From the NCBI GenBank assembly GCA_043228905.1, contig JBHGNT010000018.1, positions 11,718,001-11,782,000 on the forward strand: a stretch of 64,000 nucleotides of DNA. Direction: 5' to 3'. The stretch is from Azolla caroliniana. Its lineage: Eukaryota; Plantae; Polypodiophyta. Below are positions 1-64,000 of the stretch, piece after piece. The position numbers and the translations under genes are program-made. Every line of letters begins with the position of its first letter. Within the stretch, counting starts at the first letter, position 1. The notes under the pieces are model-generated. The model did not search any database, was not told where the DNA came from, and was given only the letters and a program-made list of their open reading frames with translations.

Positions 1-3000
1 AGGAAGAGAGAAAGATGTATAGGTTTTGTTGATTTTTTATAAGGTTTGATTAATATAAAATATTCGTGGGATTTACGATTTTGCCATCTATTTCTCTCTT
101 ACAATCTAAGTATCAATTAATACATTATACTCGTGGGATTCACGAGTTTCATATCTTCATGTAGCAATCTATTCATAACTTACCTTATCTCATATTCTTC
201 TTTCTCCTAGTCCAAAACCCCAGTGGTTCCCACTCGACTCACGCAAACGATCCGGAACAAAAGGCCCGACACAATGCTGATCCCGATGTGAAAATGGGTG
301 GCAAGGAGATGGAAAATCAACAAGAGGCTAACAACATGATGGCGATGTTCGGGCAGATGCTACAATAACAACGCGCAATGTCGGAGATTGCGGTGGCAGT
401 AGAGCGGCTCGTGTAATGTAATGGACAATTCAACAGGAAGGATGTGTCGCGATATTTGCAGGATTACAAAGCAGAATATCGGAAGGATTGTAGGTGACAT
501 CCTTCAATCGGGTGGCTACAGACGGGCTTCAAGGGAGTATCCATGGGATTTGACAACAAAATCTGACGTGGGAAGCATTTGAAGAAGCGCTAAAGACCAC
601 GTTTGCCATCAAGGTCTCCTCCAAGGCAACGCGGAGGGGATTTGAAGATTGGGTGGAAATGCCAGACAAAGGGCTGAAGGTCCTCGATGTGTTTTCGGCA
701 TTCCAAAGTCGGTTCGGGAAGTTGTCCATGAGAGATCAAGCTATCCTCGCCTTGGACAAAGTGATCATGTTCTTAGGAGCCATGGATGTCAAGGACCGGA
801 AAGATCTTGGAATGCTTCTAGAGGACACCACTATTGAGAGTGGCCTCACCAATACATGGGAAAATGTGCGGAACATCGTCGCGCGATACACAAACAGGGG
901 GCAATGGCTTGGTAGTGAAGAAAAGAGAGTTTCAAAACCAATTCCGAAACCAAGATCCAAATTGGAAGACCATTAATCATGGGCTCAGGAGACTACGACC
1001 GAGAAGGGAATCGATGCAACCACGGTGGAGCAGTTGCTGAAGGAGATGGAGAATCTGAAAATCATGATGGTGAAGAAGTCAGATGAACGTCCCACAAGTT
1101 CCAAGTATATGAACCGTCGATGCATATGGTGCGATAGCACCGAACATGATCGGAGGGATTGCGATGAGCACAAGGAGGCGCTACGATGGGATCTTATCTA
1201 CTACAAGGGAAATCGGATTCATTCGATGGACTCTCGGAAGCCACTCCGACCGAACTTTCGAAAAGGCAGCATGAAGTAGGTCCTAGAAGAGGAAATAGTG
1301 GCAAAAAGCAATTATGCGACAACCGTGGGGATACCTGTGGGTGAGTCCTCTAAAGCAAAGGCGTCTTTTTGGCTGGAAGTGCTAGAAAACCCCGAGAAAA
1401 CTGACTCTAATGAGATCCGAAGCACCGTGGAAGGCATCCAAGAAGCTACGGGATGGGAGTGCCCCGTCGATAAAAATAGCGTGTACGCCCTATGCCAATT
1501 ACATGAAGTGTACGAAGATGAGAAACGATGGCGCACGGATGATGCGGCCGGACCATCAAAGACGCCGAAGAGGTGGAACTCCGAAGGGAAGGGGAAAGGA
1601 AAAACAATTCCCGCATTCAAACTAGCTTCAAACATCGAGCAACGGATGGACTTAAAAAAAGTGTTCGAGGAGAGAATCCTCGATAGCCGGGTAGATTTTT
1701 CGCTTCGGGGATTACTCAAAATAGTGAAGGAGTTCCACAATCTGCTTGTGGATCTCGTGAAGAGAAAAAGACAAAATGCAGAGGAAAATGCTCCAAGGGT
1801 GAATGCAAATACCATTTTAATGAATGATACCAAAGTGGAGGATGAAATTCCGAACTCTCACTACACAAGGCCACACTAGGCACACGCAACTACGGAGACT
1901 CCGGTCCAAATCGGAACTATCAAAGAGCCCGTACTAGCATTGATTGATCACGAATCGGAGATCAATTTGATCAATTTGATGTCCATGGGGAAGTGGCCTA
2001 TTAACACTAAACATGGATGGAAGATCCGGGCAGCCACTAAAGCAATGGAAGATTTATTTGCGGTTTGTCCAGATGTGACGGTGAAGATCAGAGATGTGGA
2101 GATTGACCAAAATTTCTTCGTGCAAGATGAGGTCTCACACTCTATGATCCTCAAGAAACCCTTTATCACAGCTTCACAGATGGAGACAAAGGTGCTCGAT
2201 AGTGGAACGACTTTTGCACGAATTCGGAGCCAAAGCAGGGGGGCAAACTGTCCAATTGCTAATCGTGCCATCAAATCACGAAAGGAACAAGAGAGAGCTC
2301 TTGTTCCAAACAAAAATGGCTTTTTAAAGCGGATTATTGTGGAGTGGGGAAGTAATAGTCTGAGAAGCCCTGATACCCCACACAGGAAGAAAACCCTCGG
2401 ACCAAAACAAGTACGAATTGGGATCGGATGGGTTATCAATCAAGCCGATTCGGATGGTTCACGATATCTGATCTAATTCAGAGCAAAGGTTCTTAACGAA
2501 AGGCAACGCGGATATGCACAAGTTAAAAGAGAATTATGGGGAGTCATGTCGACAATAAAAGCAGATCGAGATTATTTGATCGGAGCCGAAGTAGTGATCG
2601 AAACGGATTTTCTTCTGATACTCGGGATGATGCGGTGTTGCACAATACCGGATGTGGCTATGCTAAGATGGATTGCATATGTAAAGTCGCTTAATCCGGA
2701 GATACGACACTTCTCTGGAAAAGAAAATGCGGTAGCGGATATGCTATCAAAGGCACGGTTCAGAGACGACATAGCCGAATCCGATAATGAAGAAGTTTCC
2801 GACAACTACCTTACTTCAGAGCACACATGCCAGGTGAACGTAATCCGAGAATTCCGGGAAGAAGAATATGAGGGAGAAAGCTTGCTGATCGGGAAAGTGC
2901 TACAATAAATCAAGGAATCATCGGACAATAAAGAAAAGAGAACCGAGATCCGAAGTAAGAAGCGGCAAGTTCAGAAGTTTTTCGTGAACAACGGATTAAT

Positions 3001-4936
3001 CTGGAGGGAGCCGAAAAGACCGGATGGCATACCACTACGGGTAGTTGGAACAAAAGAGCAACGAAACCGGATAATGTCTGAAATTCACAAATCTGATTGG
3101 GCTGGACATCGGGGAACATGGGCAACATTTGTGAAGATCAAACAAAAATATTGGTGGAAGAATATGTACAAAGATGTAGCGGAGTTCACAGAAAGCTGCG
3201 AGAAATGTCAAATCTACTCCGGAGTTCGACACCAAGATGAATTACATCCGACATTCTCACCGACAATCAACTTGTGGATGGTCGACATTGTGGCCATGCC
3301 AACCGGGATTGAACAAAAGAAGTACTTGGTGTTAGCCCAGGAAGATCTGACAAACCAAGTAGAAGGACGGGCACTACGGAGGAAAACATGTTCCGCAGTA
3401 TGTCAATTTCTCTTGGAAGAAGTGTTCTACAAGTATGGGTGCGTAGGACAAATGATTGTGGATCAGGGAGAACTTGACTCTGATAAAGCTAGGGAATTCT
3501 TCGTTAGACATGGAGTACGGTTAACACTAACCACAACATACAATCCGGAAGCCAACGGGAAGATCGAACGAGGACATAGTCCAATCGTCAAAGCACTTGC
3601 AAAAGCATGTGACGGAAGGGTGAAGGATTGGCTGCAGATGCTTCCATATGCACTAAGGGTGAAGGATTGCACAACGCATAGTTCCGTGGCCGGTTATATA
3701 CCAGACAAGCACCGGTAATGCGGACGGAAACCGCAATTGCAACATGGACAGTGCTACCATGGAAGGAAGAAATGAGCTAGGAAGAACTACTAGTATTCCG
3801 GATATGACAACTAGAGGGAAGACCGGAAGACATAGCGGAAGCAACACGCTGACAACAGGAAACGCGATTCCGGAACAAAAGTCGATTCGACACAAAGCAT
3901 CAACTACGACCACGGAAGATTGAAGAAGGAGATTCGGTGATAGTCTATGACAGTAGTTTGGATCATCAACATATAACGATAGGAAGTTCGCTAAAAGGTG
4001 GTTTGGGCCATACGACGTTCGGAAAGTTTTCGACAATGGAACTTACCGACTATGCGAATTGGATGGAACATTACTACAAGTGCCTATAGCGAGGAAACAG
4101 GTGAAGATTTTCAAGAAGCGGACTGACGACGAACCTTATGTTAGCTTAGACAAGACTGACAATGAGGAGCAATCGGACAAAGATCGCGGTGATGCAGAAA
4201 GCGAAGAAAGTGGACTACAATTGATAATCAACATAAGGGGAGAATCGGAGAGTGCTACGGATGAAGGCGAATAACAAGCATCAGAAACTTTGGCACATAC
4301 CAGAGGATGTGCAGGTTCGGAGGGGGTGAGTGTCGTGGTGTACTTTGTACACTACGTAAAATATGTGTGGAGTACCCGATCGACTAAGTATAAAGAAATA
4401 GGAGAAATACTACAATAAATATGTTACATGCATAGGGCAGGATTTGAACCCTCTACCTCCATGTTAGTTACGATTTTAAGCCTTACCACTGTACTAGCAT
4501 ATTATGAGTTTTAAAGTTATACTAAACTTTATCCCATGTAAATATTCTAGATAAGCATGATAGAAAAAGTTATTCATGCATACACACTCGAGTTAAAAGA
4601 AAAGATGTGATGGAAAGCTAATCATGCACATGTAGTGTGCATGAAAACTAAAGTTAGAAAAAGCATGATGTTTGCATGTGATAAACTTAAGAGTCTAAGT
4701 TTTTTTAATAAGGTTTGATTAATATAAAATATTCGTGGGATTCACGATTTTGCCATCTATTTCTCTCTTACAATCTAAGTATCAATTAATACACTATACT
4801 CGTGGGATTCACGAGTTTCATATCTTCATCTTGCAGTCTATTTATAGCTAACCTTATCTCATATTCTTCTTTCTCCTAGTCCAAAACCCCAACAGTTCCC
4901 ACCCGACTCATGCAAACGATCCAGAGCAAAAGGCCT
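1..4936 (+). mobile_element. Degenerate Ty3/gypsy LTR retrotransposon, same family as 57806-64000; 5' LTR end at 271, decayed PBS about 275-292, broken gag-PR, RT deleted, RNase H and integrase fragments, 3' LTR
   Basis: ORF fragments 653-976, 1025-1279 (CIWCDSTEHDRRDC zinc knuckle), 1298-1879, 1940-2476, 2546-2908 and 2984-3718 (integrase GHRG/CEKCQ/NPEANGKIER) are colinear with the intact copy. Most of 1-264 recurs in 4700-4935. Confidence 0.95.
4331..4936 (+). repeat. 3' LTR of the degenerate gypsy; the last few bases were lost by a deletion fusing it to copia sequence
   Basis: Starts TGTCGTG right after the purine tract GGAGGGGGTGAG and matches the 5' LTR end up to AAAAGGCC. It then runs into copia sequence just upstream of the protease. 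Confidence 0.85.
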
Positions 4937-7240
4937 TCGTGATGAAGCACAAGGCTAACTCGATGAAGAAGACTACTGCCAAATCGGAGGAAGTATGGTA
5001 CATTAATTCTGGAACATCCAACCACATGACAAGCCATGAAGAGTGCTTCTCTTTTTTGGAGAAGCCGAAACAACCGGGGATTGTCGAAACCGGAGACGAC
5101 ACCCCTAACCCGATTGTGCATGTCGAAGAAGTCCCTTTAAGCCATGTCGGACAAAACGGAAAGCTGATGAAGGTATTACACATTCCGACTATCACAAAGA
5201 ACCTGGTATCGGTCGGACAAATCGTCGACCGGGGAATACAGGTGCAATTTACGCACCTCAGGTGCTTCATCGAGGAAGAAGGCCGGATAATTGCATAAGG
5301 GCGCATAGAAGGGAGGATGTTCGTCCTCAACACTAGTGACGTCAACACCGCCATGTTTGCCAAAGGACTGAAGATTGAATCGGACATCGATCTCTGGCAC
5401 AAGTGGATCGGCCACGTCAATTACCGGAGGCTTTAGGACCTGCAATCAAAATAGGTAGTGTTCGGTTTGCCAAAATTCAATGCTCGGAAGGCCCAAGTTT
5501 GTGAAGCCTGCCAACTCAGGAAGCAACACCGGCTTCTATTCCCCACCGAATGAAACCGAAGCCATAACAAGCTCGATCTAATCCATTCGGATGTATGGGG
5601 ACCGGCACAAAACGTTTGTCTTGGCGGGAGTCGGTATTTCGTCTTCTTCATCAACAACTACAGCCGACACACGTGGATCTACCTCATTGTGAAGAAAAGC
5701 GAAGTCTTCGACTATTTCCGGAACCTTCAAAGTTTACTCGAAAAGGAAATGGAAAGGAAGATCAAGTGTCTGTGGTTGGATGGCGGAAAAGAATACTCTT
5801 CCGGCCAATTCAACAGTTATCTACAGCAGAACGGAATTCGGAGAGAATTCAATTGCCGATACACACCAGAACAAAATAGTGTTACCAAGAGAAAGAACCG
5901 GTCGATTGTCGACGTGGCAAGGGCAATGTTGGAGAAGAAGAGCATGCCCCAATTCTACTGGGCTGAGGCGGTTCAGACGGTTGTCTACATCCAAAACCAG
6001 ATAGGAGACAAGGTGTCAGCACATGAGCTGTATTTCAGGCGGAAGCCGAATTTGAGGAACCTTCGGATATTCGGTAGCATAGCATATGTGCATGTACCGG
6101 ATGAGAAGCGGAAGAAGCTAGATCCGAAGTTGGAGAACGACATCTTAGTCGGTTACTCGCATGAGCAAAAGGGGTATAAGTGCTATAACCCCCGGACTAA
6201 GCAAGTCCGAGTAAGCCAAGATGTCGAGTTTGATGAGACGGCATCATAGTACTCCTTACCGACTCCAACTCCCGACGAAGACCCGATTCCGAAAGATGAG
6301 GCTAGTGAGCCCGAGGAGGTCTAGGTAGAAGATGAAGATTTCGGCACTTTAGAAGAGAGTCCGATCTCATTCCGGCTAAGTGGGCCAAATGAGCAGCTGA
6401 GTTAGGATAGTTTGTGTGGTCCTGGCGGTTGATGCGGCAAGGGGATGGCATCTTCACCAAATGGATGTGAAGAATGTGTTTCTTCAAGGTGACCTTGAAG
6501 AACGGGTCTATATGATCCAACCCCCCGGTTTCCAATCAGAGATGAACAAGTCGGTAGTGTGCCGACTCAAAAAGTCACTTTACGGTCTGAAGCAAGCCCC
6601 TCGAGCTTGGAATGCGAAGATCACGCACCGGTTGCGTAAGATGGGGTTTGCGGCCTCAAAGTCCGACTCTTCATTGTTCATCCGGAATAGTCTGGACGGT
6701 TCGGTTTGCATTTTGATTTATGTAGATGATTTAGTCATCACCAAACCCGGACTCGTTGAAATTGGCTGAGTGAAGTCCCAGCTGTCGGACGCATTTGAAA
6801 CGAAGGACCTGGGGAACCTTCATTATTTTCTTGGGATCGAGGTGATCCGAACCCCCAATGGCATATTTCTCTCACAAAGACACTATGTGCTGAATATGCT
6901 GTACTAGAACCTCAAGGTACTTCCCGACTCCGGACTGGCCTACGATGAGAAACAGTTCTGACAAATTGTCGGAAGCCTTATCTGCTTGACAATCACCCGA
7001 CCTGATGTTACCGGCCGGCAAGAAGTCCAAAATACGGAGTGAAGGAATTAATTAAGTATGGTTGTAAATAAGCATAGTATGGACGGACGGACTGGAAACC
7101 TATTTAAAGGCCCGGAGCCCATTGTAATCGGAGCGGATAATTAATAGAGCGTATGGTGTTTATACTTCTGTGTTGATTTCCGTTCTGTAATTACTGTTAT
7201 ATCTTACGCGTGTAATCAACAAGCGGAAACCAGAAGACGG

Positions 7241-8038
7241 TTGGAAGAGGCGAAGAAGGTTCGGACAGAGCTCCTCAGGCAACAGCAGGCGGAAAGAGAA
7301 AGAGCGGCGGAGGTACTGCAGAGGCTGCAGACAACATATCAAGGGCAGCTGACGCGCTACAGAGAGCAGGCGGAGGATACGGCTAATCTCATCAAGCAGT
7401 TGAAGGAGGAACGACAAGTTGTGGAAAGTAGAGCGCAAATGGGAGCAAGTCGCATCCAGGATATCATGCGGGCCTGGTTGAACCAGACCAAGAGCTTGAT
7501 TGACAACGGTTCCGTCAAATGGTGGACCAAGTGGGCCCCGAACGCGGCGGAACTCCAGTTGCTCCGGGCCGACGTAGAGAACCGGCGGAAGGAGGGAGAT
7601 GATTGCTATATGCTGACTTCCGAAGACTTCACCGGCATAAGAGATGAGCTGGCCGAAGACTTTCAAGCCTTGGCAGAGGACCAACTAGGGCAAGTCCGGC
7701 AACTTGTAGCTCAGCTGGACGACGACAGGCTGGAGGCGCAGATCCAGTTTGAAAGCTACGAGAGGTCCCGGATCCGGGAAGAGAAAGCACGAGAACCAGT
7801 AACGGTCAACCTCAGTGATGAGGAACCGTTACTGGAAGGAGACCGGACCGGAAGCAGTCAAACGGGGATGCCGGAGTCAGAGAAACAAACGGAGCAGCCG
7901 CCTATAGAGCAGCCGGAGCAGTCTCAGTCCCAACCGCAATCACAGCAGCAGCAGCAAGCACAGCCGCAACAACCACAACCGGAAGAACAATTGGAAACTC
8001 TGGAACAAAGTATTTTGGACAATTTGGGTGAACAATGA
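7241..8038 (+). CDS. 5'-truncated extra ORF of the LTR element; predicted coiled-coil with a Q/P/E-rich tail; function unknown
   Basis: 265 codons without a stop, E/Q/R/L-rich. The frame stays open back to the deletion junction. No Gag or Pol motif recognised. Confidence 0.7.
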   Translation: MEEAKKVRTELLRQQQAERERAAEVLQRLQTTYQGQLTRYREQAEDTANLIKQLKEERQVVESRAQMGASRIQDIMRAWLNQTKSLIDNGSVKWWTKWAPNAAELQLLRADVENRRKEGDDCYMLTSEDFTGIRDELAEDFQALAEDQLGQVRQLVAQLDDDRLEAQIQFESYERSRIREEKAREPVTVNLSDEEPLLEGDRTGSSQTGMPESEKQTEQPPIEQPEQSQSQPQSQQQQQAQPQQPQPEEQLETLEQSILDNLGEQ

Positions 8039-8072
8039 AGGGGCCGAGAAGGGTTCGACGTACAAGGTACTA

Positions 8073-8088
8073 TCCCACGGGCGTGCCA
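8073..8088 (-). promoter_or_regulatory. Primer-binding site complementary to the tRNA-Arg 3' end
   Basis: Minus strand reads TGGCACGCCCGTGGGA, 2 nt from the LTR's CA. This resembles the recalled plant tRNA-Arg(UCU) 3' end (UCCCACCGGGCGUGCCA, one base missing) and the Tat/Ogre-type PBS. Confidence 0.7.
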
Positions 8089-10137
8089 TGTGTTACGGCC
8101 GGCAAGAAGTCCAAAATATGGAGTGAAGGAATTAATTAAGTATGGTTGTAAATAAGCATAGTATGGACGGACGGACTGGAAACCTATTTAAAGGCCCGGA
8201 GCCCATTGTAATCGGAGCGGATAATTAATAGAGCGTATGGTGTTTATACTTCTGTGTTGATTTCCGTTCTGTAATTACTGTTATATCTTACGCGTGTAAT
8301 TAACAAAAAGCGCTCTAATCGTGTAACCTACATAAGTCGGTGTAATCGTTGAGTCATAATCCTATGCCGTAATCACCCTTTGGTGAAGTGTCTTCGCGAC
8401 ACCTTGTGTTAGGCCTTGTCCGGTCAGAGAACAACACCTGACATCACTTACCCGGTCGGAGTGATCATCCAGTTCATGCAGAAGCCAACTGTAGAGCACC
8501 TATAGTGTGCACACCGGATAGTCTGGTATGTTAGCGGCACGACGGACTGGGGACTATTATACCGACATGGTATAGCTGGGAAACTAATCAGATATATCGA
8601 TGCCGACTAGGCTGGTGATGCATCAGCTCACCAATTCACCTCCGGTTACATGTTTTCTCTTGTTAGCGCAGTTGTTGCATGGAGAAGCAAAAAGCAGCGA
8701 ACAGTGGCTCTGTCGAGCACTGAGGCTAGCTAAGTACTGGGGTGCTACCATTGCCACCTATGAAGCCATCTCGCTTCGGCGACTGTTGCGTGACCTCCAG
8801 ATCGAGGTGCTGACCCCGATCCCGATCCACTGTGACAACATGAGCAACATACAAGTCGCCAAGAACGCAGTGTTCCATGCTCGGACAAAGCACATAGAAG
8901 TGCATTATCACTTTGTTCGTGAGCGAGTCTTGAGCGGTAAAGTTGAACTTCGGTATGTTCACACGGATTGGCAGGTTGCCAACATCTTCACCAAGCCGCT
9001 CGGGTTGGACAAGTTGCAGTACTTTTCGTAGACGCTCAGCCTCCAGCATCTCGATGTGCTGCACTTTAGGGGGAGAACGGGAACGGGAACGGATGGCACC
9101 GGACAAGGAGCCGGAGAGGAAGAAAGAACCAAAGGGGGAGATAAGTAGAAAAAGAAAGCCGAGCCGACTGAAGGAGTCGGCACATCCGAACAAGTCAGAG
9201 CAAACAGCAGTGGCAGCAGAGTCAAGAAGGACAGAGCCAACCGGAAGAAGACCAAGACCCGGACGAGGTCTGATGTGGTGAAGGGCCTAAAAATGGAAGA
9301 AGAGTTGGAGACTACTCGTTGGACAAGAGCTGGAACGAATCGGATGAAGCCGATTCGGTTCAAGATTTGGAGAAGCCGGATCAACTAAAGGCCAAGCGGA
9401 TGAGAAGGCAGCGGAAGTCGATACCGACACAGAGGAACTAATGGATTGACAAGCGTCGGAGTCATAACAACGAAGGAGCTGAAATGGGCCTGTTGAGTAG
9501 ACAAGCTGACCAAGGAGGTTGAAGTGTGTAGCACCAGACGGGTTGCGGGAAGCGGAACCGGACCGAAGAGGAGCGCGAGCAAGCCAGAACAACGCCAGAA
9601 CGATCCAGTGAAAGGACCAGCTGCCATAGACACTAACACCATGATCCAACCTCAAGTTGAGCTTGAGGGGGGGGAGTATTGAGCGGCAAGCTCAACCGGA
9701 TCCGAATTGGCATCCGGAACCAAGAGCTAGATCGGTATCCGGATGGTATCCGGAAACAACCAACCGGATCGGGGAGACGGATCGGAGAGCCGGATTCGAG
9801 CACGAACCGGAAGCCTAGTAGTAGCCTAGACTAGTAGGTAATCATTGTCTCGTAGTTAGTGTCAATCGCACGTAGGAACATTGAAGTACATTGTACTTCT
9901 GTCAGTCCTTTTCAGGACTTGTATAAATAGTGTTGTTGTAGCACATTGTATGGACAAAGTTTACAAAGTGTTATTTTGATTTGAGTTTATGTTCTGCTCT
10001 CTCTATCTCTCCCATATATATTTCCTGTGTGAAGCTTTTCCACAAAACCTTCTCTTATTCTTTGTTGCTACCCGGCTGAGCCAGTTTGTCTAACGTTTCT
10101 GCACGTTTACTTTCACACCCAATAATTTTATTAAGTA

Positions 10138-14713: not shown

Positions 14714-16170
14714 TGTTGTGTGATTCTTCACACACTATGTAAAAAAATAATGAAATAATTATTTTAGATTAGATTAGTGGCTTGATATGGAAAGATAGAT
14801 GTCTTCAAGAGCTTCATAATGCATTTTACTACACATGAAACGGATAAATAAGTATTAAGTTATGTGAATATGAAGTTGAAAGGATAAGGAAAATAGAATT
14901 GTGAAATATCCCACATAGATAAGAAACTTTAGGATCCATCTATATAAGCAAATTGAGAACTACTAGTTTTCATCTAAGTGTTGAGAGCACAAAAGGAATG
15001 GTTGGACTTGGACCAATTTGTCTACATGGACAAATGTGGCTAAGGAAATCGGAAATTAGAAACTGGATGCAGCCGGCAACCAGATAGAACCGACAACAAA
15101 ACTGGGAATCAAAAACTAGATGAAGTCGGCAACGGGACACCAGAAATTGGAAACCAGATGGAGCCGATGACGAAATTGGGCAATCGGCAACTGGACAGAA
15201 CTAGCAACTGGACGGCAACGGACTGGAAACCGGACGATGCTCGCAACGAAGTTGAGAATCGGAACCGGCGACCGGCGACCAATCGGATGGAGCCGGCAAC
15301 TGGCAACCAGCAAACGGACGGCGACGGACTGGAAACCGGACGAAGCCGACGACGAAGTTGGGAACCGAAACCGGATGACGACGGAATCGGCAACCGGCGG
15401 CAATCGGATGGAGCCAGCAATCGGCAACCGATGGTGACAGAATGGAAACCAGACACGGACCGAACGGATCGAATGGGCGATGGTCGAGATGCACGGATGA
15501 TAGGATCATGCGGCGAATTAATGTAAAATAAAGTAAAGGTCATGTGAAAGGCATGCAAAGAAAAGAGGGAGGCCATGCATGAAGTAAAGGTCATGTGGAA
15601 GGCATGCAACTAAAGGTAAAGGCCATGCAACTAAAAGTAAAGGCGAACCAACTAAAAAAGAAGGCCATGCAACTAAAAGTAAAGGCGAAGCAACTAAAAC
15701 AGGAGGCCATGCAACTAAAAATAAAGGCTAAGCAACTAAAAATGGAGGCCATGCAACAAATAGGGGACGCATGCAAAGGAACATGGGAGGCGATGATCAA
15801 GAGGGAACTCGATATATGTACCACTTTTTTTCTCTAGTTTCTTCTTCTTCTTTTTGGCCCATTCTCTTCTTCTCTCTCCCATTCCTTGGTGAAGAATAAT
15901 CTCTCATATTCATATCGGACCACTCCTTACATGGTTGTTGGCTCCTTTCTTCCAAGAGTGATCTCTCATTTTCATATCCAATCTGTTGTAACATGATTCT
16001 AGAATTATAAAGACTCTATTTTCTTTTGCAATAAACAAACATTTTCTCCCTCCTACTTGGCTTATGTTCAAATATTGCTTGTGTTGTAGAGGTGTGCACT
16101 AATTCCTTCTAGACCATAACCCCGGCGGTTCCGCCTGACGATCCGCTCATAGTGATAGATTATCACGACA
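14714..16170. mobile_element. Solo LTR (1457 bp) inserted in copia A RT
   Basis: Termini TGTTGTG..CACGACA with 4-bp TSD ACGG (14710-14713 and 16171-16174). Removing it restores RT sequence as seen in the other copies. Confidence 0.8.
15599..15760. repeat. About 8 x 21-bp tandem repeat inside the solo LTR
   Basis: Units such as AAGGCCATGCAACTAAAAGTA alternate with AAGGCGAAGCAACTAAAACAG. Confidence 0.9.
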
Positions 16171-43416: not shown

Positions 43417-45483
43417 TGTTATGTGTGTATATAAGAGAAGAGAGAAGAGAGACACGATATAGGAAAAACAGAATCCAAATTGTATATTCACAAGAACAAG
43501 AATGACAACCAACAATTACAAAAGGAGAGATGAGGGTGCTTATAAGTTCACCCTCTCTCTACATTATCTCACTAGAATGCCCTCTCGGGAAGGGGGAGAA
43601 CTTAACTAACTCATTAACTATGTGTCATAGGAGTTACATTCTATGACACATTAGTTATTGTTACACAATGGTGGTGTGTTCACACACTTGCATATTCTTA
43701 AGGTGTGTGTTCACACCCTAGAGCAAGTTGAGTTTGATTCTCAACACACCCCTTCAAGCTCAACTTTTGGTGTAAGTCAGCTTTCGGTGTTGGCTTCGGC
43801 TTTAATGTCCGGCTTTCGAATCCGCTAGTGTCCAACTTCCGTCCGCTTTCAGCTCCACTAGTATCTGACTTCTTTCATCCTTCGCTCCCCCTCAAGCTTG
43901 GCAATTTGGAAGTTGAAAGACCAAGCTCCGACAAGAATTGCCGAAACTTGTCAACTCCTAGGGCTTTCGTAAATATGTCGGCCATCTGAAGATTCATGTT
44001 GATATGTTGAAGGTTGACATCCCTCGCAAGGACACATTCTCTCATTAACTATGTGTCATAGGAGTTACATTCTATGACACATTAGTTATTGTTACACAAT
44101 GGTGGTGTGTTCACACACTTGCATATTCTTAAGGTGTGTGTTCACACCCTAGAGTAAGTTGAGTTTGATTCTCAACACACCCCTTCAAGCTCAACTTTTG
44201 GTGTAAGTCAGCTTTCGGTGTTGGCTTCGGCTTTGATGTCCAGCTTTCGAATCCGCTAGTGTCCAACTTCCGTCCGCTTTCAACTCCACTAGTATCTGAC
44301 TTCTTTCATCCTTCGCTCCCCCTCAAGCTTGGCAATTTGGAAGTTGAAAGACCAAGCTCCGACAAGAATTTTCGAAACTTGTAAACTCCTAGGGCTTTCG
44401 TAAATATGTCGGCCATCTGAAGATTCATGCTGATATGTTGAAGGTTGACATCCCTCGCAAGGACACATTCTCTCATTAACTATGTGTCATAGGAGTTACA
44501 TTCTATGACACATTAGTTATTGTTACACAGTGGTGGTGTGTTCACACACTTGCATATTCTTAAGGTGTGTGTTCACACCCTAGAGTAAGTTGAGTTTGAT
44601 TCTCAACACACCCCTTCAAGCTCAACTTTTGGTGTAAGTCAACTTTCGGTGTTGGCTTCGGCTTTGATGTCCAGCTTTCGAATCCGCTAGTGTCCAACTT
44701 CCGTCCGCTTTCAGCTCCACTAGTATCTGACTTCTTTCATCCTTTGCTCCCCCCCAAGCTCGGCAATTTGGAAGTTGAAAGACCAAGCTCCGACAAGAAT
44801 TGCCGAAACTTGTAAACTCCTAGGGCTTTCGTAAATATGTCGGCCATCTGAAGATTCATGTTGATATGTTGAAGGTTGACATCCCTCGCAAGGACACATT
44901 CTCTCATTAACTATGTGTCATAGGAGTTACATTCTATGACACATTAGTTATTGTTACACAGTGGTGGTGTGTTCACACACTTGCATATTCTTAAGGTGTG
45001 TGTTCACACCCTAGAGTAAGTTGAGTTTGATTCTCAACACACCCCTTCAAGCTCAACTTTTGGTGTAAGTCAACTTTCGGTGTTGGCTTCGGCTTTGATG
45101 TCCAACTTTCGAATCCGCTAGTGTCCAACTTCCGTCCGCTTTCAACTCCACTAGTATCTGATTTCTTTCATCCTTCGCTCCCCCCCAAGCTCGGCAATTT
45201 GGAAGTTGAAAGACCAAGCTCCGACAAGAATTTTCGAAACTTGTCAACTCCTAGGGCTTTCGTAAATATGTCGGTCGTCTGAAGATTCATGCTAATATGT
45301 TGAAGGTCGACATCTCTTGCAAGGACACATTCTCATATGATGTGGTAGTGCACCTCGATGTGCTTTGTTCAAGCATGGAAGACAGGGTTCCGAGCAAGAT
45401 GGATATTGTTGAGATTGTCGCAGTAGATCAAGATTGGGTCGTTGATGGAGACGTCCAGGTCTTTCAAAACCCTCTTAAGCCAT
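43417..45483 (-). mobile_element. 3' end of a copia element (LTR about 43417-43746, PPT, RNase H) with internal tandem amplification; left boundary approximate
   Basis: RNase H motifs on the minus strand (YCDNLNNIHLARNPVFHA*TKHIEVHYH, ADIFTKALG). PPT GAAGGGGTG precedes TGTTGAGA. Confidence 0.8.
43610..45336. repeat. Tandem array, 4 x 431 bp
   Basis: Unit starts CTCATTAACTATG at 43610, 44041, 44472 and 44903. Confidence 0.97.
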
Positions 45484-58670: not shown

Positions 58671-60710
58671 ATGGAGGCTCAACAAGCTAACAATATGATG
58701 GCGATGTTCGAACGGATGCTTCAAGAACAACGCACGATGTCGGAGATTTCGGCATCAGTAGAGCGGCTCGTGCAACGCAACGGGCAATTTAATGGTAAGG
58801 ATGTGTCGCGATATTTGCAGGACTACAAGGCGGAGATGCTCCGGTGCCGGGCTTCGGAAGGACTGCAAGTGACATCCTTTAACCGGGTGGCGACCGACGG
58901 GCTTCAAGGGAGTATCCACGGGTTGCAACAACAAAATCCGACGTGGGAAGCATTCGAAGAGGCGTTAAAGACCACGTTTGCCATCGAGGACTCCTCCAAG
59001 GCAACGCGGAGGGGATTCGAGGATTGGGTGGAAACGTCAGGTAAGGGGCTGAAGGTCCTCGAAGTGTTTTCGACATTCGAAAGTCGGTTCGGGAGGTTGT
59101 CCGCGAGAGATCAAACTATTCTTGCACCGGACAAAGTCATCATGTTTTTGCGAGCTGTGGACGTCCGGGACCGGAAAGATCTCGGAGTGCTTCTTGAGGA
59201 CACGACCACCGAAAGCGGCCTCACCGAAACATGGGAAAGCGTGCGGGATATCGTCGCGCGGTACACGAAGAGGGGGCAATGGCTTGCCAACGAAGAAAAG
59301 AGGGTTTCGGAACCGATTCCGAAACCGAGAACGGGACTGGAAGACCATCAACCGAGGGCTCGGGAGATTACGGCCGAGAAGGGAGTCGACGCGTCTACGG
59401 TGGAGCAGCTGCTGAAGGAGATGGAGAATCTAAAGATCGCGATGGTGAAGAAGTCGGATGACCGCCCCACAAGCTCCAAATATACGGATCGACGGTGCAT
59501 ATGGTGCGATAGCGCCGAACACGATCGGAGGGATTGCGACGACCATAAGGAGGCGCTACGACGGGATCTCATCTACTACGAGGGAAACCGGATTCATTCG
59601 ATGGACTCTCGGAAGCCACTCCGACCGAACTTCCGGAAAGGCGGCATGAAGAAGGTGCTCGAGGAGGAGTTAGCGGCAAGAAGCAACTATGCGACAACCG
59701 CGGGAATATGTGTCGGGGAGTCATCGGGAGCGAAGGCGTCTTTCTGGCCGGAGGTGCTAGGAAACACCGAGAAAACCGACTCCAACGATATCCGAAACAC
59801 CGCGGAAGGCGTCCGGGAAGCTACGGGATGGGAGTGCCCTGTCGACAAGAATAGCATATACGCCCTGTGTCAATTACATGAGGTGTATGTGGACGAGAAA
59901 CGACGGCGCACGGAGGATGCGGCCGGACCATCGAAGATACCGGAAAGCTGGAACTCCGGAGGTAAGGGAAAAGAAAAGGCGACTCCGGCATTCAAGCTCG
60001 CCTCGGACATAGAACAACAAACCGACTTGAAAAGAGTGTTCGAGGAAAGAATCTTGGATAGCCGGGTAGATTTTTCGCTGCGGGAACTACTCGGAATAGC
60101 GAAGAAGGAGTTTCACGATCTTCTCGTGGATCTCGTGAAAAGGAAGAGACAAAGTACGGAGGAAAATGCTCCAAGGGTGAATGCAAATACCGTTTCAATG
60201 AACGACACCGAAGTGGAAGGCGAAATTCCGAACTCCCACTATACAAGGCCACACTGGGCACGTGCGACTACGGAGACTCCGGTCCGAATCGGCAACATCA
60301 AAGAACCCGTGCTAGCATTGATTGATCACGGATCGGAGATCAACTTGATGTCCAAGGAGTTCTACCGAAAGGGGAAGTGGCCTATAAACACCAACCATGG
60401 ATGGAAGATTCGGGCAGCCACAAAAACGACAGAAGACCTATTTGCGGCTTGTCCGGATGTGACGGTAAAGATCGGGGATGTCGAAATTGACCAAAATTTC
60501 TTTGTGCAGGATGAGGTTTCACATTCTGTCATCCTCGGCCAACCCTTTATCACGGCTTCACGGATGGAGACGAAGGTGCTCGATAGTGGTGCGGCTTTTG
60601 CGCGAATTCGGAGCCAAAACGGAGGGAAATCCGTCCAATTCCTAACGGTACCGGCAAATCACGAAAGGAACAAGAGGGAACTCTTGTCCCAAGTGAGAAT
60701 GGATTTTTAA
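58671..60710 (+). CDS. gag: Gag-protease polyprotein (first ATG 58671)
   Basis: CX2CX4HX4C knuckle (CIWCDSAEHDRRDC) and aspartic protease ALIDHGSEINLM..VILGQPF. No stops. Confidence 0.93.
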   Translation: MEAQQANNMMAMFERMLQEQRTMSEISASVERLVQRNGQFNGKDVSRYLQDYKAEMLRCRASEGLQVTSFNRVATDGLQGSIHGLQQQNPTWEAFEEALKTTFAIEDSSKATRRGFEDWVETSGKGLKVLEVFSTFESRFGRLSARDQTILAPDKVIMFLRAVDVRDRKDLGVLLEDTTTESGLTETWESVRDIVARYTKRGQWLANEEKRVSEPIPKPRTGLEDHQPRAREITAEKGVDASTVEQLLKEMENLKIAMVKKSDDRPTSSKYTDRRCIWCDSAEHDRRDCDDHKEALRRDLIYYEGNRIHSMDSRKPLRPNFRKGGMKKVLEEELAARSNYATTAGICVGESSGAKASFWPEVLGNTEKTDSNDIRNTAEGVREATGWECPVDKNSIYALCQLHEVYVDEKRRRTEDAAGPSKIPESWNSGGKGKEKATPAFKLASDIEQQTDLKRVFEERILDSRVDFSLRELLGIAKKEFHDLLVDLVKRKRQSTEENAPRVNANTVSMNDTEVEGEIPNSHYTRPHWARATTETPVRIGNIKEPVLALIDHGSEINLMSKEFYRKGKWPINTNHGWKIRAATKTTEDLFAACPDVTVKIGDVEIDQNFFVQDEVSHSVILGQPFITASRMETKVLDSGAAFARIRSQNGGKSVQFLTVPANHERNKRELLSQVRMDF

Positions 60711-60764
60711 AGCGGACTGTTGCGGAGTGGGGAAGTGATAGTCCGAGAAGCCCTGATACCCCAC
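60701..60764 (+). other. Candidate -1 ribosomal frameshift signal (G_GAU_UUU plus pseudoknot)
   Basis: Heptamer 60701-60707, 5-nt spacer, stem 1 60713-60723 with 60735-60745, stem 2 60727-60732 with 60759-60764. Confidence 0.85.
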
Positions 60765-63700
60765 ACAGGAAGAAAACTCTCGAAGCAAAACAAGTACGAA
60801 TCGGCCCGGATGGGGCATCTACGTACACGGCCGTAACCGGAGGAATGAAGAAACAATACCGACAAGTGGAGGATAAGTTACGGTCGGCATCAATAATAAA
60901 AGAAGACGAAGAAATCGTGGGAGTGATCGAGGAAGTGTTCTATGGGAATACACTACAACGGCTTGAAGAGCTTGCGGAAGATAAAAGCCAAGGGAACCGG
61001 GTAGTCCCGGTGGAATCGGTCGAGATGTACGAGATCGTTGCGAAAATGGGGCCGGATGCGCTCCGCAAAGAAGAAGCAATGGTAAGTACGAAATACAAGA
61101 CCGTGGAGAAGAAGGTAAAACCGGCCGCGGGACCACTACCCGCCGATAGCGAACAAAAGAAGAAAGAAGTCTCGGGAGATCCGACACTTCGGAAGTCCGT
61201 GGATATCGGACATGCCTTCACAGATGAGACCCGGAAGAAACTTCGGATCGGTGGAGGTGGGTTCCTCTTACAAGAAGAAGAAAAACGGTTTCGAGAGATG
61301 TTGGAGCAACACGGCAAAGCATTCGCGTTCACATCGAGGGAGATCGGATGCATTGATCCAAAGATAGTGGAGCCGATGGTGATCTTCACGATTGATCATG
61401 TACCGTGGAACCTGAAGCCGATTCCGGTGCCACGGGCACATATTCCGAAAGTCATCGACTTGCTCAAGGAGAAGGTGGCGATGGGGATTCTAGAGCCATC
61501 AAGTGCTCCGTACTCAAATCGATGGTTTACGGTTCCGAAGAAGAATGGGTCACTCCGATTCATCCAAGACTTGCAACCGGTGAACAAGGTCACGATCCGG
61601 AACTCGGGAGTCGGTCCGATAGTGGACGAATTCGCGGAAGCTTTTGCCGGACGTGCGATATACTCCATCGGGGACCTATACTCGGGGTATGACCAATTCC
61701 AACTAGCCGTGGAGAGCCGAGACATCACTACCATGCGGACACCGATAGGACTAGTTCGAATGTGCACACTACCACAAGGAGCGACAAACTCGGTTGCACA
61801 TATGATGAACGCGATGAACAAGGTGCTTCGAGATTGCATCCCGGAGATAACGATGCCGTTTCTAGATGACATTCCGATGAAAGGATGCGCGGTGGAAGAA
61901 AAAGATGAGACTATGGATGATCGGGGATGCCGAAAGTTCGTGGTCGACCATATTCATGATTGCGAGAAAGTGTTGCGAAAGCTAGAAGATGTGCACCTAA
62001 CACTTTCCGGGGAGAAATCGGCATTCGGGCAAGAAGAAATATTGGTGGTCGGACATCTATGTGGACCCTACGGCCGAAGACCGTCACCAACAAAGATCGA
62101 TGCGATTCAAGCTATGAAGGAAGTATGTGAGTCAACATCGGAAGTCCGAAGGTTTCTGGGTGCGTGTGCATTCTATCACATATGGATTCCGCACTATGCA
62201 CATATAGCGGACCCGCTCTATCACTTGTTGCGGAAAGGTAAGAAATTCGAGTGGAAACCGGAACACACTAAAGCCATGAGGAAGCTCAAGAAGACACTAT
62301 GGAGGGCGGAATCACTTAAGAAGCCATGCTACGAGCGGCCAATCATAGTAACGGTTGATACAAGTCCAACCGGTATCGGGTGGGTCATCAATCAAGCCGA
62401 CTCGGATGGTTCGCGGTATCCGATCCGATTTGGAGCAAAGGTCCTCAACGAAAGGCAACGCGGATATGCACAAGTCAAAAGAGAATTGTGGGGAGTCGTG
62501 TCGGCGATAAAATCGGATCGGGATTATTTGATCGGAGCTGAAGTGGTGATCGAGACGGATTGTCTTCCGATACTCGGGATGATGCGGTGTTGTACGATAC
62601 CGGATGTGGCTATGCTAAGGTGGATTGCATATGTCAAGTCACTTAATCCGGAGGTTCGACACATCTCGGGGAAGGACAACGCGGTAGCGGACATGTTATC
62701 GAGGGCGCGGTTTGAAGATGACATAACCGAATCAGATAATGAAGAAGTTTCCGAAGACTACTTCACGTCAGAACACATATGCCAAGTGAACGTGATCCGA
62801 GAATTCCGGGAAGAAGAATACGAGGGGGAAACCTTGATGATCGGGAAGATGCTACAAGAGGTCGAGGATTCAACCAATGATAAAGAAAGGAGAGCCGAGA
62901 TCCGAAGGAAGAAGAGGCAAGTCCAAAAGTTCTTCTTGGAAAACGGTTTAATATGGAGGACGCCGAAAAGACCGGATGGGATACCACTTCGAGTAGTCGG
63001 GACGAAAGAGCAACGAAACCGGATAATGTCCGAGTTCCACGAATCCGATTGGGCTGGACATCGAGGAACATGGGCAACTTTTGTGAAAATCAAGCAAAGA
63101 TATTGGTGGAAGAACATGTATAAAGATGTCGCGGAGTTCACAGAAAGCTGCGAGAAATGTCAAGTCTACTCCGGGGTCCGACACCGAGATGAGTTGCATC
63201 CGACATTCTCACCGACAATCAACTTCAAGTGGATGGTCGACATTGTAGCTATGCCGACCGGGATTGGACAAAAGAAATACTTGGTGTTAGCTCGAGAAGA
63301 TCTCACAAACCAAGTTGAAGGTCGAGCGCTTCGGAGGAAAACGTGTGCCGCGGTGTGCCAATTTCTTTTGGAAGAAGTGTTTTGTAGGTACGGCTGCGTA
63401 GGACAAGTGATTGCGGACCGGGGAGAACTCGACTCGGACAAAGCTAGGGGATTCTTCGCCAAACATGGAGTTCGGTTAACGTTGACAACGGCCTACAATC
63501 CGGAGGCCAACGGGAAGATCGAACGAGGACATAGTCCGATCGTGAAAGCACTTGCGAAGGCATGCGACGGAAGGGTGAAGGATTGGCCACAAATGCTTCC
63601 GTATGCACTATGGGCGGATCGGACGACGCATAGCTCCGTGACCGGTTACATGCCGGCAGAACTCATGACCGGACAAGCACCGGTAATGCCAACGGAAACC

Positions 63701-64000
63701 GCAATCGCGACATGGACAATACTACCGTGGAAGGAAGAGATGAGCCGGGAAGAACTACTAGCGGTCCGGATACGACAACTGGAGGGAAGACCGAAAGATG
63801 TAGCGAAAGCGTCACGCCGACAACAAGAAGCACGGTTCCGGAACAAAAGCCGGTTCGACACAAAGCACCGACTACGACCGAGGAGGATTGAAGAAGGAGA
63901 TTGGGTGATCGTCTATGATAGTAGCTTGGACCATCAACATACAACGATGCGGAAATTCGCGAAAAGGTGGTTCGGGCCGTACGAGGTTCGGAAGGTCTTC
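60701..64000 (+). CDS. pol: Pol (RT-RNase H-integrase) in the -1 frame; 3' end outside the window, so absent from the ORF track
   Basis: Manual translation shows KYKTVEKKVKP, EPSSAPYSNRWFTVPKKNG, LPQGATNSV, FLDD (61859-61870), VDTSPTGIGW, NAVADMLSR, GHRGTW and YNPEANGKIER. I saw no stop codon. Confidence 0.93.

What the first reader, a model, noticed from the sequence alone, without database searches (positions are those of the whole stretch)
7006..8436. Coiled-coil ORF antisense to, and ending 35 nt from, a tRNA-Arg PBS
Seen: an intact 265-codon + strand frame stops at 8038. It is followed by TCCCACGGGCGTGCCA (a tRNA 3'-end copy, i.e. a minus-strand PBS) and then the LTR, with no purine tract at this junction. 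The LTR has CCTATTTAAAGG, TATA-like on both strands. Inference: either the element carries an antisense extra gene in its 5' leader where gag would be expected, or it is + oriented with a tRNA-complementary site replacing the PPT. Extra ORFs I know in Tat/Ogre/Athila are usually 5' sense or 3'.
Basis: partly seen in the sequence, partly recalled or inferred. Interest (0 to 1): 0.7.

Follow-up and report, generated by a model that had tools for sequence, protein, structure and literature searches.

The report
Retrotransposon swaps PPT for tRNA-end copy
This is a deleted copy of a plant jumping-gene family that has a conserved copy of a tRNA end, not the usual purine-rich signal, beside its right-hand repeat, so a second host tRNA likely starts its second DNA strand; the coiled-coil gene is the tail of a larger same-strand extra gene whose missing front part is predicted to resemble a plant anti-silencing protein.

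Summary
Window 7006-8436 is a TSD-flanked, internally deleted Ty3/gypsy copy nested in a copia RT. In relative L003, gag-pol lies on the same strand, followed by a ~1,000-codon sense extra ORF, the tRNA-end copy and the LTR. Behind the LTR relatives carry a normal forward PBS (tRNA-Arg(UCG)-type). The window ORF is only codons 691-972 of that gene, has no ATG start, and is under purifying selection (dN/dS 0.07-0.2). The 44-nt junction holds a T-arm box, a small hairpin and a tRNA 3' end; 14 of 16 relatives match it at 40 or more of 44 bases while synonymous sites are saturated. No PPT is present. Best mechanism (inferred, 0.55): a second tRNA primes plus-strand DNA. The missing N-terminal domain has VANC21 as its best structural match (Z 6.7, a middling score). 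Host tRNAs could not be checked. The scan reported this dual-site layout three times on other pieces of this genome; my paper searches did not find it.

The parts
7001..7005 (+). Left target-site duplication CCTGA
   Evidence: identical to 8437-8441; the interrupted copia RT frame is continuous across it
7006..7222 (+). Truncated 5' LTR: first 217 nt with the TATA-like box at 7099-7110. U5, forward PBS, gag-pol and about 690 codons of the extra ORF are deleted behind it
   Evidence: 98.6% identical to 8091-8306; junction
7218..7222 (+). AACAA at the deletion joint, likely a microhomology (LTR side seen; ORF side inferred from E690-Q691 of P0021)
   Evidence: inference
7220..8038 (+). C-terminal 272 codons plus stop of the sense 3' extra ORF: long helix/coiled coil, helical hairpin, Q/E/P-rich tail. 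First ATG at 7439
   Evidence: residues 691-972 of P0021; helices 2-123 and 134-191; dN/dS
8051..8059 (+). T-arm-like box GGGTTCGAC (tRNA positions about 51-59); start of the conserved module
   Evidence: (loose ends of 39-52 contigs stop at 8051 in each of three DNA runs)
8060..8072 (+). Inserted small hairpin (GTAC-AAG-GTAC) plus 2 nt, looped out in the predicted tRNA duplex
8073..8088 (+). Copy of a tRNA 3' end with CCA, one base shorter than tRNA geometry, in the PPT position; its complement on minus-strand DNA is the proposed plus-strand primer site
8089..8090 (+). 2-nt spacer TG between CCA and the LTR start
8091..8436 (+). Complete 3' LTR (346 nt, TG...CA); TATA-like box 8183-8194, CATTGTA 8204-8210
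8437..8441 (+). Right target-site duplication CCTGA

Best explanation
The locus is a deleted copy of a + oriented Ty3/gypsy retrotransposon whose family carries a tRNA-end copy instead of a polypurine tract before the 3' LTR, and a second host tRNA likely anneals to the complement of this site on the new minus-strand DNA to prime the plus strand. Shown: family order LTR, forward PBS, gag-PR-RT-RH-INT, sense extra ORF, tRNA-end module, TG, LTR; no PPT; strong conservation of the module; purifying selection on the ORF; this copy's deletion. Inferred steps: (1) a tRNA-Arg(UCG)-type primer starts the minus strand at the forward PBS; (2) RNase H clears the RNA over the module; (3) a tRNA-Arg(UCU)-type molecule pairs by its 3' 17 nt (one base bulged) and its T-arm, with the 13-nt insert looped out; (4) RT extends from CCA, so the DNA end begins 2 nt outside the LTR, the usual integrase overhang; (5) the full-length extra protein (VANC/PMD-like N-terminal domain, linker, long coiled coil) likely binds DNA or chromatin as an anti-silencing or targeting factor (about 0.4, a separate inference). 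This copy lacks the forward PBS, gag-pol and the N-terminal domain and is likely dead.
For: Orientation: L003 has gag, PR, RT-RH, INT, extra ORF, module and LTR on one strand in one contig; L002 joins the end of INT to the extra ORF. Forward PBS: 7 of the 10 relatives listed that run through the LTR end continue with CAGTTTT-TGGCGACCACG; the other 3 continue into unrelated flank. gag follows on the same strand in L016 and L020. The 11 nt are the exact complement of the last 11 nt of zebrafish 3'tRF-Arg(TCG) (PMC4688932, passage). L008, whose LTR matches L017 at 443 of about 452 nt, extends this to an 18-nt tRNA-shaped copy (16 of 18 to that tRF) and then unrelated DNA, as expected when plus strong-stop DNA copies the primer. 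Athila also has a 3-6 bp AT-rich spacer before its PBS (bioRxiv 10.64898/2026.03.20.713144, passages). LTR polarity: TATA, then CATTGTA, then an AATA motif on + in 14 of 20 loci. Conservation: the 44-nt junction matches at 42/44 in 9, 40-41/44 in 5, 36/44 in 1, and is partly deleted in 1 of the 16 of 20 loci that reach it, while synonymous divergence to six of these loci is saturated (pS 0.74-0.81) and the 45 nt upstream match at about 62-76%. Summed contig depth peaks at the module in 3 of 3 DNA runs (164k vs 29k/62k; 215k vs 5.5k/32k; 146k vs 14k/36k) and in 2 of 2 DNA runs on L003, so divergent families share this stretch more than its flanks. For a trans tRNA over a cis hairpin: the window's family has lost part of the RNA stem (not formed in the MFE fold) yet pairs without a gap to the tRNA T-arm. 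RNase H catalytic motifs are present in L003 and close relatives. ORF: dN/dS 0.20 to L001, 0.07-0.10 to three further loci (three more saturated), 0.22-0.41 among relatives. N-terminal domain model pLDDT 91.7; best of 48,161 chains is VANC21-DNA 9LNK, Z 6.7, rmsd 3.8, 171 of 181 aligned, next Z 4.1. Atlas leads: Transposase_32 and ATHILA, 0.84-0.87.
Against: No experiment shows priming. No host tRNA gene was seen: no genome is held, and ARAGORN found 0 tRNAs in the window and in the 20 element loci. The tRNA-Arg(TCT) stand-in is a phage gene found with a pattern built from the element, so its duplex rank (-46.4 kcal/mol, best of 6,394 windows, mean -17.9) is partly circular; the second hit of that scan was not called a tRNA. 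The one viral hit for the forward-PBS pattern was tRNA-Asp. The site lacks one base relative to tRNA geometry, so only 10 nt pair without a gap at the 3' end. None of the 16 junction loci shows the extra base that a copied plus-strand primer would leave. Rfam gave 0 matches at E<=10. Relatives are short metagenome contigs, mostly from one accession series, and those that run LTR-to-gag are probably collapsed over the LTR; only L003 spans gag-pol to the module. The reversed site has the canonical 2-nt spacing and is longer than the forward PBS. The VANC21 Z of 6.7 is below the level (8) that the tool treats as more than a common arrangement; identity is 9%; Foldseek, Pfam and a profile search of PDB sequences gave no VANC or PMD match; Atlas scores under 0.9 are leads only.
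Confidence: 0.55

Rival explanations
1. The genomic RNA's own tRNA-like segment is the plus-strand primer: its hairpin resists RNase H, the ten 3' bases stay on the minus DNA, and RNase H cuts after CCA as it would to remove a tRNA primer (a tRNA-mimic PPT; no second tRNA needed).
For: Same position and 2-nt spacing. In L003 the + RNA folds a 6-7 bp stem around the insert (-21.4 kcal/mol). It needs no match to a host tRNA, so the missing base is no problem. It keeps the ordinary logic of a primer cut from the genome.
Against: The window's family has weakened this stem and the MFE fold does not form it, while T-arm complementarity is kept. A cis primer has no clear need to keep the T-loop letters.
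Confidence: 0.24
2. The module does something other than priming (tRNA capture for packaging or dimerisation, an extended part of the minus-strand primer site, or a decoy for tRNA fragments), and the plus strand starts by another, unseen route.
For: Conservation shows function, not which function. Short purine runs lie 40-50 nt upstream in the window. Bipartite primer sites are known in yeast Ty3 (recalled, not from a call).
Against: The LTR boundary is set by the plus primer's 3' end (established retroviral mechanism), and it lies 2 nt after CCA in 15 of 15 loci listed. The site is tRNA-identical, not complementary, on the genomic strand, and pairs poorly with the forward PBS (-10.6 kcal/mol).
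Confidence: 0.12
3. The packaged genome is the antisense RNA: the reversed site is the true PBS, and gag-pol and the extra ORF are read from a separate sense mRNA.
For: The reversed site has canonical 2-nt spacing and an extended tRNA match; the window's TATA-like box reads on both strands.
Against: No PPT at the other junction on that strand either. L008 shows an 18-nt tRNA-shaped copy at the forward PBS. LTR signals are ordered for + transcription, and the TATA is asymmetric (CTATAAAAAGG) in L006, L018 and L019. A site recopied from tRNA each cycle would be expected to regain the missing base (inference).
Confidence: 0.07
4. The site is a neutral relic or a local rearrangement of this copy.
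For: This copy is rearranged (large internal deletion), and L004 and L018 have decayed modules.
Against: Same junction in 16 of 16 relatives that reach it; 40 or more of 44 identical in 14, against saturated synonymous sites; depth peaks in all DNA runs laid.
Confidence: 0.02

Closest known systems
Plant non-chromovirus Ty3/gypsy without aRH: Athila, Phygy, Selgy and moss Tat-like elements (Neumann 2019, PMC6317226: passages, section 13 and Additional file 5 read; Ustyantsev 2015, PMC4408406: passages)
   Same: gag-PR-RT-RH-INT order, no chromodomain or second RNase H found, tRNA-type forward PBS. Like Athila: 5-bp TSD, AT-rich spacer before the PBS, large 3' extra ORF. RT-RH groups with liverwort, fern and environmental sequences.
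   Different: No PPT; a tRNA-end copy sits there. Phygy has a 4-bp NCGN TSD, tRNA-Trp and no eORF; Selgy 4 bp and tRNA-Ala; Athila mainly tRNA-Asp/Asn and a conserved PPT junction. Moss Tat-like elements were reported to lack eORFs. In the tree the family is apart from the angiosperm and pine groups (no labelled lineage references).
PMD-coiled-coil extra ORFs of Tat lineages IV and V (Ogre and relatives; PMC4408406, passages)
   Same: A compact N-terminal helical domain followed by a long C-terminal coiled coil, in an extra ORF of a Ty3/gypsy element.
   Different: Those are 5' sense (lineage IV) or 3' antisense (lineage V) in flowering-plant elements with aRH; this one is 3' sense, in an aRH-less element, and has no Pfam PMD match.
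VANC21 (DUF1985) anti-silencing protein of Arabidopsis VANDAL21, and PMD-C proteins (PDB 9LNK; bioRxiv 10.1101/2024.09.27.615353 and PMC8616336, passages)
   Same: Best structural match of the predicted N-terminal domain over 171 of 181 residues. The preprint reports that PMD-C and DUF1985 are structurally similar and that PMD-A proteins are retrotransposon-encoded.
   Different: VANC is carried by a DNA transposon and has shown function. Here the match is Z 6.7 at 9% identity, no target motif or activity was tested, and the domain is absent from the window's copy.
Canonical LTR-element priming (tRNA at PBS, RNase H-resistant PPT), e.g. the copia elements in this window
   Same: Primer 3' end about 2 nt outside the LTR; forward tRNA PBS.
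   Different: The window's copia copies have a Met-type PBS and G-rich PPTs; this family has a second tRNA-shaped site instead.

Membership tests
Ty3/gypsy LTR retrotransposon | gag-PR-RT-RH-INT order between direct LTRs (TG...CA) with a TSD | tested here: met
   Domains in relative L003; LTR ends and 5-bp TSD in the window
Ty3/gypsy LTR retrotransposon | [quoted passage not shown] | tested here: met
   7 of 10 relatives through the LTR end; 11-nt match to a published tRF-Arg(TCG); deleted in the window copy
Ty3/gypsy LTR retrotransposon | [quoted passage not shown] | tested here: not met
   9 of 20 purines in the window; same junction in 16 of 16 relatives
Tat clade (TatI-III, Ogre, Retand) | Additional archaeal-type RNase H (aRH) in pol | tested here: not met
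   L003 RH runs straight into integrase; Pfam finds one RH only; none of the 120 listed RT-RH relatives shows PF13456 or PF00075
Phygy | 4-bp NCGN TSD, tRNA-Trp PBS, no extra ORF | tested here: not met
   5-bp TSD, Arg-type PBS, large extra ORF; definition
Athila | RT-RH clusters with Athila references | tested here: inconclusive
   The family is apart from Coffea, Pyrus and Tanacetum sequences that I take to be Athila from recalled motifs; no labelled references; quick tree, several open forks
Athila | tRNA-Asp/Asn PBS and conserved PPT junction | tested here: not met
PMD / DUF1985 (VANC) / Athila ORF-1 / Transposase_32 extra-ORF domains | Profile match to the Pfam family | tested here: inconclusive
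   0 of 63 aligned members match any of these families at E<=1; Atlas leads 0.84-0.87
PMD / DUF1985 (VANC) / Athila ORF-1 / Transposase_32 extra-ORF domains | Shared fold with VANC21 | tested here: inconclusive
   Z 6.7, rmsd 3.8, 171 of 181 aligned, next hit 4.1; Foldseek gave no match at E<=0.001
VANC-type anti-silencing factor | Sequence-specific binding to its own element and loss of DNA methylation there | not testable with these tools
   needs binding and methylation data
Env-like 3' ORF | Transmembrane segment | tested here: not met
   Highest 19-residue hydropathy 1.15 (P0021) and 1.31 (P0025)

The most novel reading that the evidence does not exclude
A large, recently active clade of LTR retrotransposons in non-seed plants has abandoned the polypurine tract and primes both DNA strands with host tRNAs, using two different tRNA-Arg species at inward-facing sites, and carries a VANC-like anti-silencing protein with a long coiled coil as a sense third gene.
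Probability: 0.5. Interest if true: 0.87.

Novelty: new variant of a known kind. Interest (0 to 1): 0.7.

Why it matters
PPT priming of the plus strand is treated as a near-universal rule of retroviruses and LTR retrotransposons, and annotation tools use it to orient elements. A high-copy family that replaces it with a tRNA-shaped site would be a natural exception. It makes several questions testable with short substrates: how RNase H chooses and removes primers, whether RT can start from tRNA on a DNA template, and whether host 3' tRNA fragments can block both strands. It also predicts that such elements get mis-oriented in repeat libraries. The extra ORF extends the PMD/VANC-like coiled-coil cargo to aRH-less elements of non-seed plants, where a 2015 survey reported none, and gives a candidate retrotransposon anti-silencing factor. 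The window copy itself is only a remnant.

Tried and rejected
No whole genome is held, so no host tRNA list and no full-length genomic copies. Pfam: 0 families for the window ORF and for P0021-P0023, one weak repeat hit for P0024. Viral contigs: no relative of the ORF (262 stretches, 0 confirmed), 0 matches to the junction, 1 distant RT. Prokaryote genomes gave 2 short contaminant-like RT contigs without junctions, and a pattern search in those genomes matched no more than its control (5 vs 8). Rfam: 0 matches. No RNA holder was listed as on record, so expression and strand were not tested; X17 and X19 are RNA only by guess. Foldseek on PDB and BFVD: 0 matches at E<=0.001; second look 0 of 126 chains at Z>=2. 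The profile search of PDB sequences gave only weak ribosomal uS19 hits (best E 0.0075), taken as chance. The C-terminal model matched generic coiled coils only (Z<=8.2 among 1,271 chains at Z>=5). Self-priming by pairing of the 3' module with the forward PBS was rejected. An env-like role was rejected for lack of a hydrophobic segment. Novelty searches (listings only) returned 0, 0, 7 and 1 papers, none about this layout by title or abstract start; some searches were lineage and domain searches; one search returned no useful PBS paper. The library lacks most subscription journals. REXdb Additional files 1 and 3 (per-element PBS table, domain FASTA) were too large to read and could hold members of this clade; bioRxiv supplements were not seen. 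Six of 120 RT-RH hits were dropped from the tree for short coverage. Whether other copies share this deletion joint was not tested.
Full report
1. Observation. The element is window 7006-8436, TG...CA, flanked by CCTGA on both sides and inserted in the RT of a copia element. The right LTR is 8091-8436. The left end is only its first 217 nt, 98.6% identical. The + frame stops at 8038, the 16-mer is at 8073-8088, and TG separates it from the LTR. The 20 nt before the LTR hold 9 purines; three copia PPTs in the window hold 14-15. The frame is not an intact gene: its first ATG is codon 74, and 7220-8035 is residues 691-972 of the 972-aa protein P0021 (92% identical). The joint to the LTR falls on AACAA, likely a microhomology.

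2. Orientation. L003 (9,446 bp) holds gag, protease, RT-RNase H and integrase (Pfam), then a stop-free extra ORF of 994 codons plus a frameshifted tail, the module and the LTR, all on one strand. L002 joins the end of integrase to the extra ORF. Of the 10 loci listed that run through the LTR end, 7 continue with CAGTTTT-TGGCGACCACG and 3 with unrelated flank; gag follows on the same strand in L016 and L020. Contigs of two DNA runs also bridge LTR end, PBS and leader. The 11-nt site is the exact complement of the end of zebrafish 3'tRF-Arg(TCG) (PMC4688932, passage); a wheat small RNA has the same end (PMC6965360, passage); the single viral hit for this end was tRNA-Asp. L008 carries an 18-nt tRNA-shaped extension here and then DNA with no match to the other loci, the window or the fetched proteins. 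TATA, CATTGTA and an AATA motif are ordered for + transcription in 14 of 20 loci. So the ORF is a sense 3' extra gene and the tRNA-end copy is in the PPT position. Caveat: contigs that pass from 3' LTR to gag are probably collapsed over the LTR.

3. The module. It spans 8051-8090: a T-arm-like box, a 13-nt insert with a 4-bp hairpin, and a tRNA 3' end one base short. A phage tRNA-Arg(TCT) (1 of 2 hits of a pattern built from the element) pairs with the minus strand along its 3' end and T-arm with the insert looped out (-46.4 kcal/mol), the best of 6,394 windows (partly circular). Of 20 loci, 16 reach the junction: 9 match 42 of 44 nt, 5 match 40-41, L004 matches 36, and L018 has a deletion. 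Synonymous sites between the window and six of these loci are saturated. Summed contig depth peaks at the module in 3 of 3 DNA runs, and 39-52 contigs per run diverge just left of 8051; one search repeats the peak on L003 in 2 of 2 DNA runs. Depth is no copy number, but the pattern shows that divergent families share this stretch more than its flanks.

4. Mechanism. In LTR elements the plus primer's 3' end fixes the left LTR boundary (established). Here the boundary lies 2 nt after CCA in 15 of 15 loci listed, so the primer most likely ends at CCA. It could be a host tRNA on minus DNA (0.55) or the genome's own tRNA-like remnant (0.24). I favour the first because the window's family has weakened the RNA stem but keeps ungapped T-arm complementarity. 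Against it: no host tRNA was checked, only 10 nt pair without a gap, and no locus shows the extra base. A non-priming role (0.12), an antisense genome (0.07) and a relic (0.02) remain.

5. The extra ORF. It has 439 relatives at E<=0.001 among 50%-identity representatives. dN/dS is 0.20 to L001 and 0.07-0.10 to three more loci; 18 of the 30 listed variants in the ORF are synonymous (the table was cut). The window part folds as two long helices with only generic coiled-coil matches. The N-terminal domain, absent from the window, folds confidently (pLDDT 91.7). Its best match among 48,161 chains is VANC21 bound to DNA (Z 6.7, rmsd 3.8, 171 of 181; next 4.1), and Atlas leads point to Transposase_32 and ATHILA. 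These are middling scores, and Pfam, Foldseek and a profile search found nothing. They agree with published links between PMD and the VANC domain and with known PMD-coiled-coil extra ORFs of Tat elements. An anti-silencing or chromatin role is an inference (about 0.4).

6. Placement. The RT-RH tree (115 rows, 6 dropped, quick method) puts the family among liverwort, fern and environmental sequences, apart from angiosperm and pine groups. No aRH was found, so it is not Tat; TSD, PBS and eORF do not fit Phygy or Selgy; PBS and junction do not fit Athila. The host is probably a non-seed land plant; I did not determine it.

7. Novelty. Four targeted searches found no paper on a tRNA-shaped site replacing the PPT; the library is incomplete and two REXdb files were unreadable. 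Three earlier notes of this scan describe the same layout on other pieces of this genome, and one a similar idea in a fungus. My reading was written before I saw them; they are not independent support. One note reports a VANC-like fold in another genome's retrotransposon, seen after my. What this follow-up contributes: the ORF is a truncated sense gene under selection with a VANC/PMD-like front, the L008 footprint supports + as the genome strand, and stem loss with kept T-arm pairing favours a trans tRNA.

8. Verdict. Observation partly confirmed; interpretation partly supported. New variant of a known kind; interest 0.70.

Noticed in passing
L008:1894-1918: A 3' LTR followed by the spacer and an 18-nt tRNA-shaped copy, then unrelated DNA: a possible footprint of plus strong-stop DNA that copied the tRNA primer. 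One low-coverage contig.
   Followed up: partly
coded run X17, 280-nt record laid on window 8051-8096: A string like the forward-PBS spacer lies about 20 nt before the module and a different LTR follows: possibly a miniature non-autonomous element made of the two sites only.
   Followed up: no
L003:5545-5560, L002:278-292, L006:3966-3982: A conserved TATA-like box about 85-95 nt before the extra ORF's likely ATG suggests an internal sense promoter.
   Followed up: no
L003:9163-9215, L006:7652-7705: After the forward PBS a short TGC...GCA hairpin keeps its stem while its loop varies among families, echoing the hairpin in the 3' module.
   Followed up: no
L003:8707-8712 and 9158-9163: The two bases outside each LTR end (TG left, CA right) extend the terminal inverted repeat to TGTGTT...AACACA.
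   Followed up: no
window 4852-9680: Host copia element with a G-rich PPT at 9663-9676, carrying the studied insertion in its RT; related minus-strand copies at about 13.1-32.2 kb have Met-type PBS and PPT.
   Followed up: partly
window 33-4935 and 58854-64000: A second gypsy family (DUF4100-type gag region) with LTR-like repeats at 33-266 and 4702-4935 whose inner right junction showed no obvious purine tract; boundaries not resolved.
   Followed up: no
window 43610-45334: Four tandem copies of a 431-bp unit, 95-99% identical.
   Followed up: no
window 15585-15794: A 21-bp tandem repeat; similar units occur in L006 near 3050-3200.
   Followed up: no
L025, L026: Short contigs with plant-type gypsy RT inside two bacterial genome assemblies, likely contamination.
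   Followed up: partly
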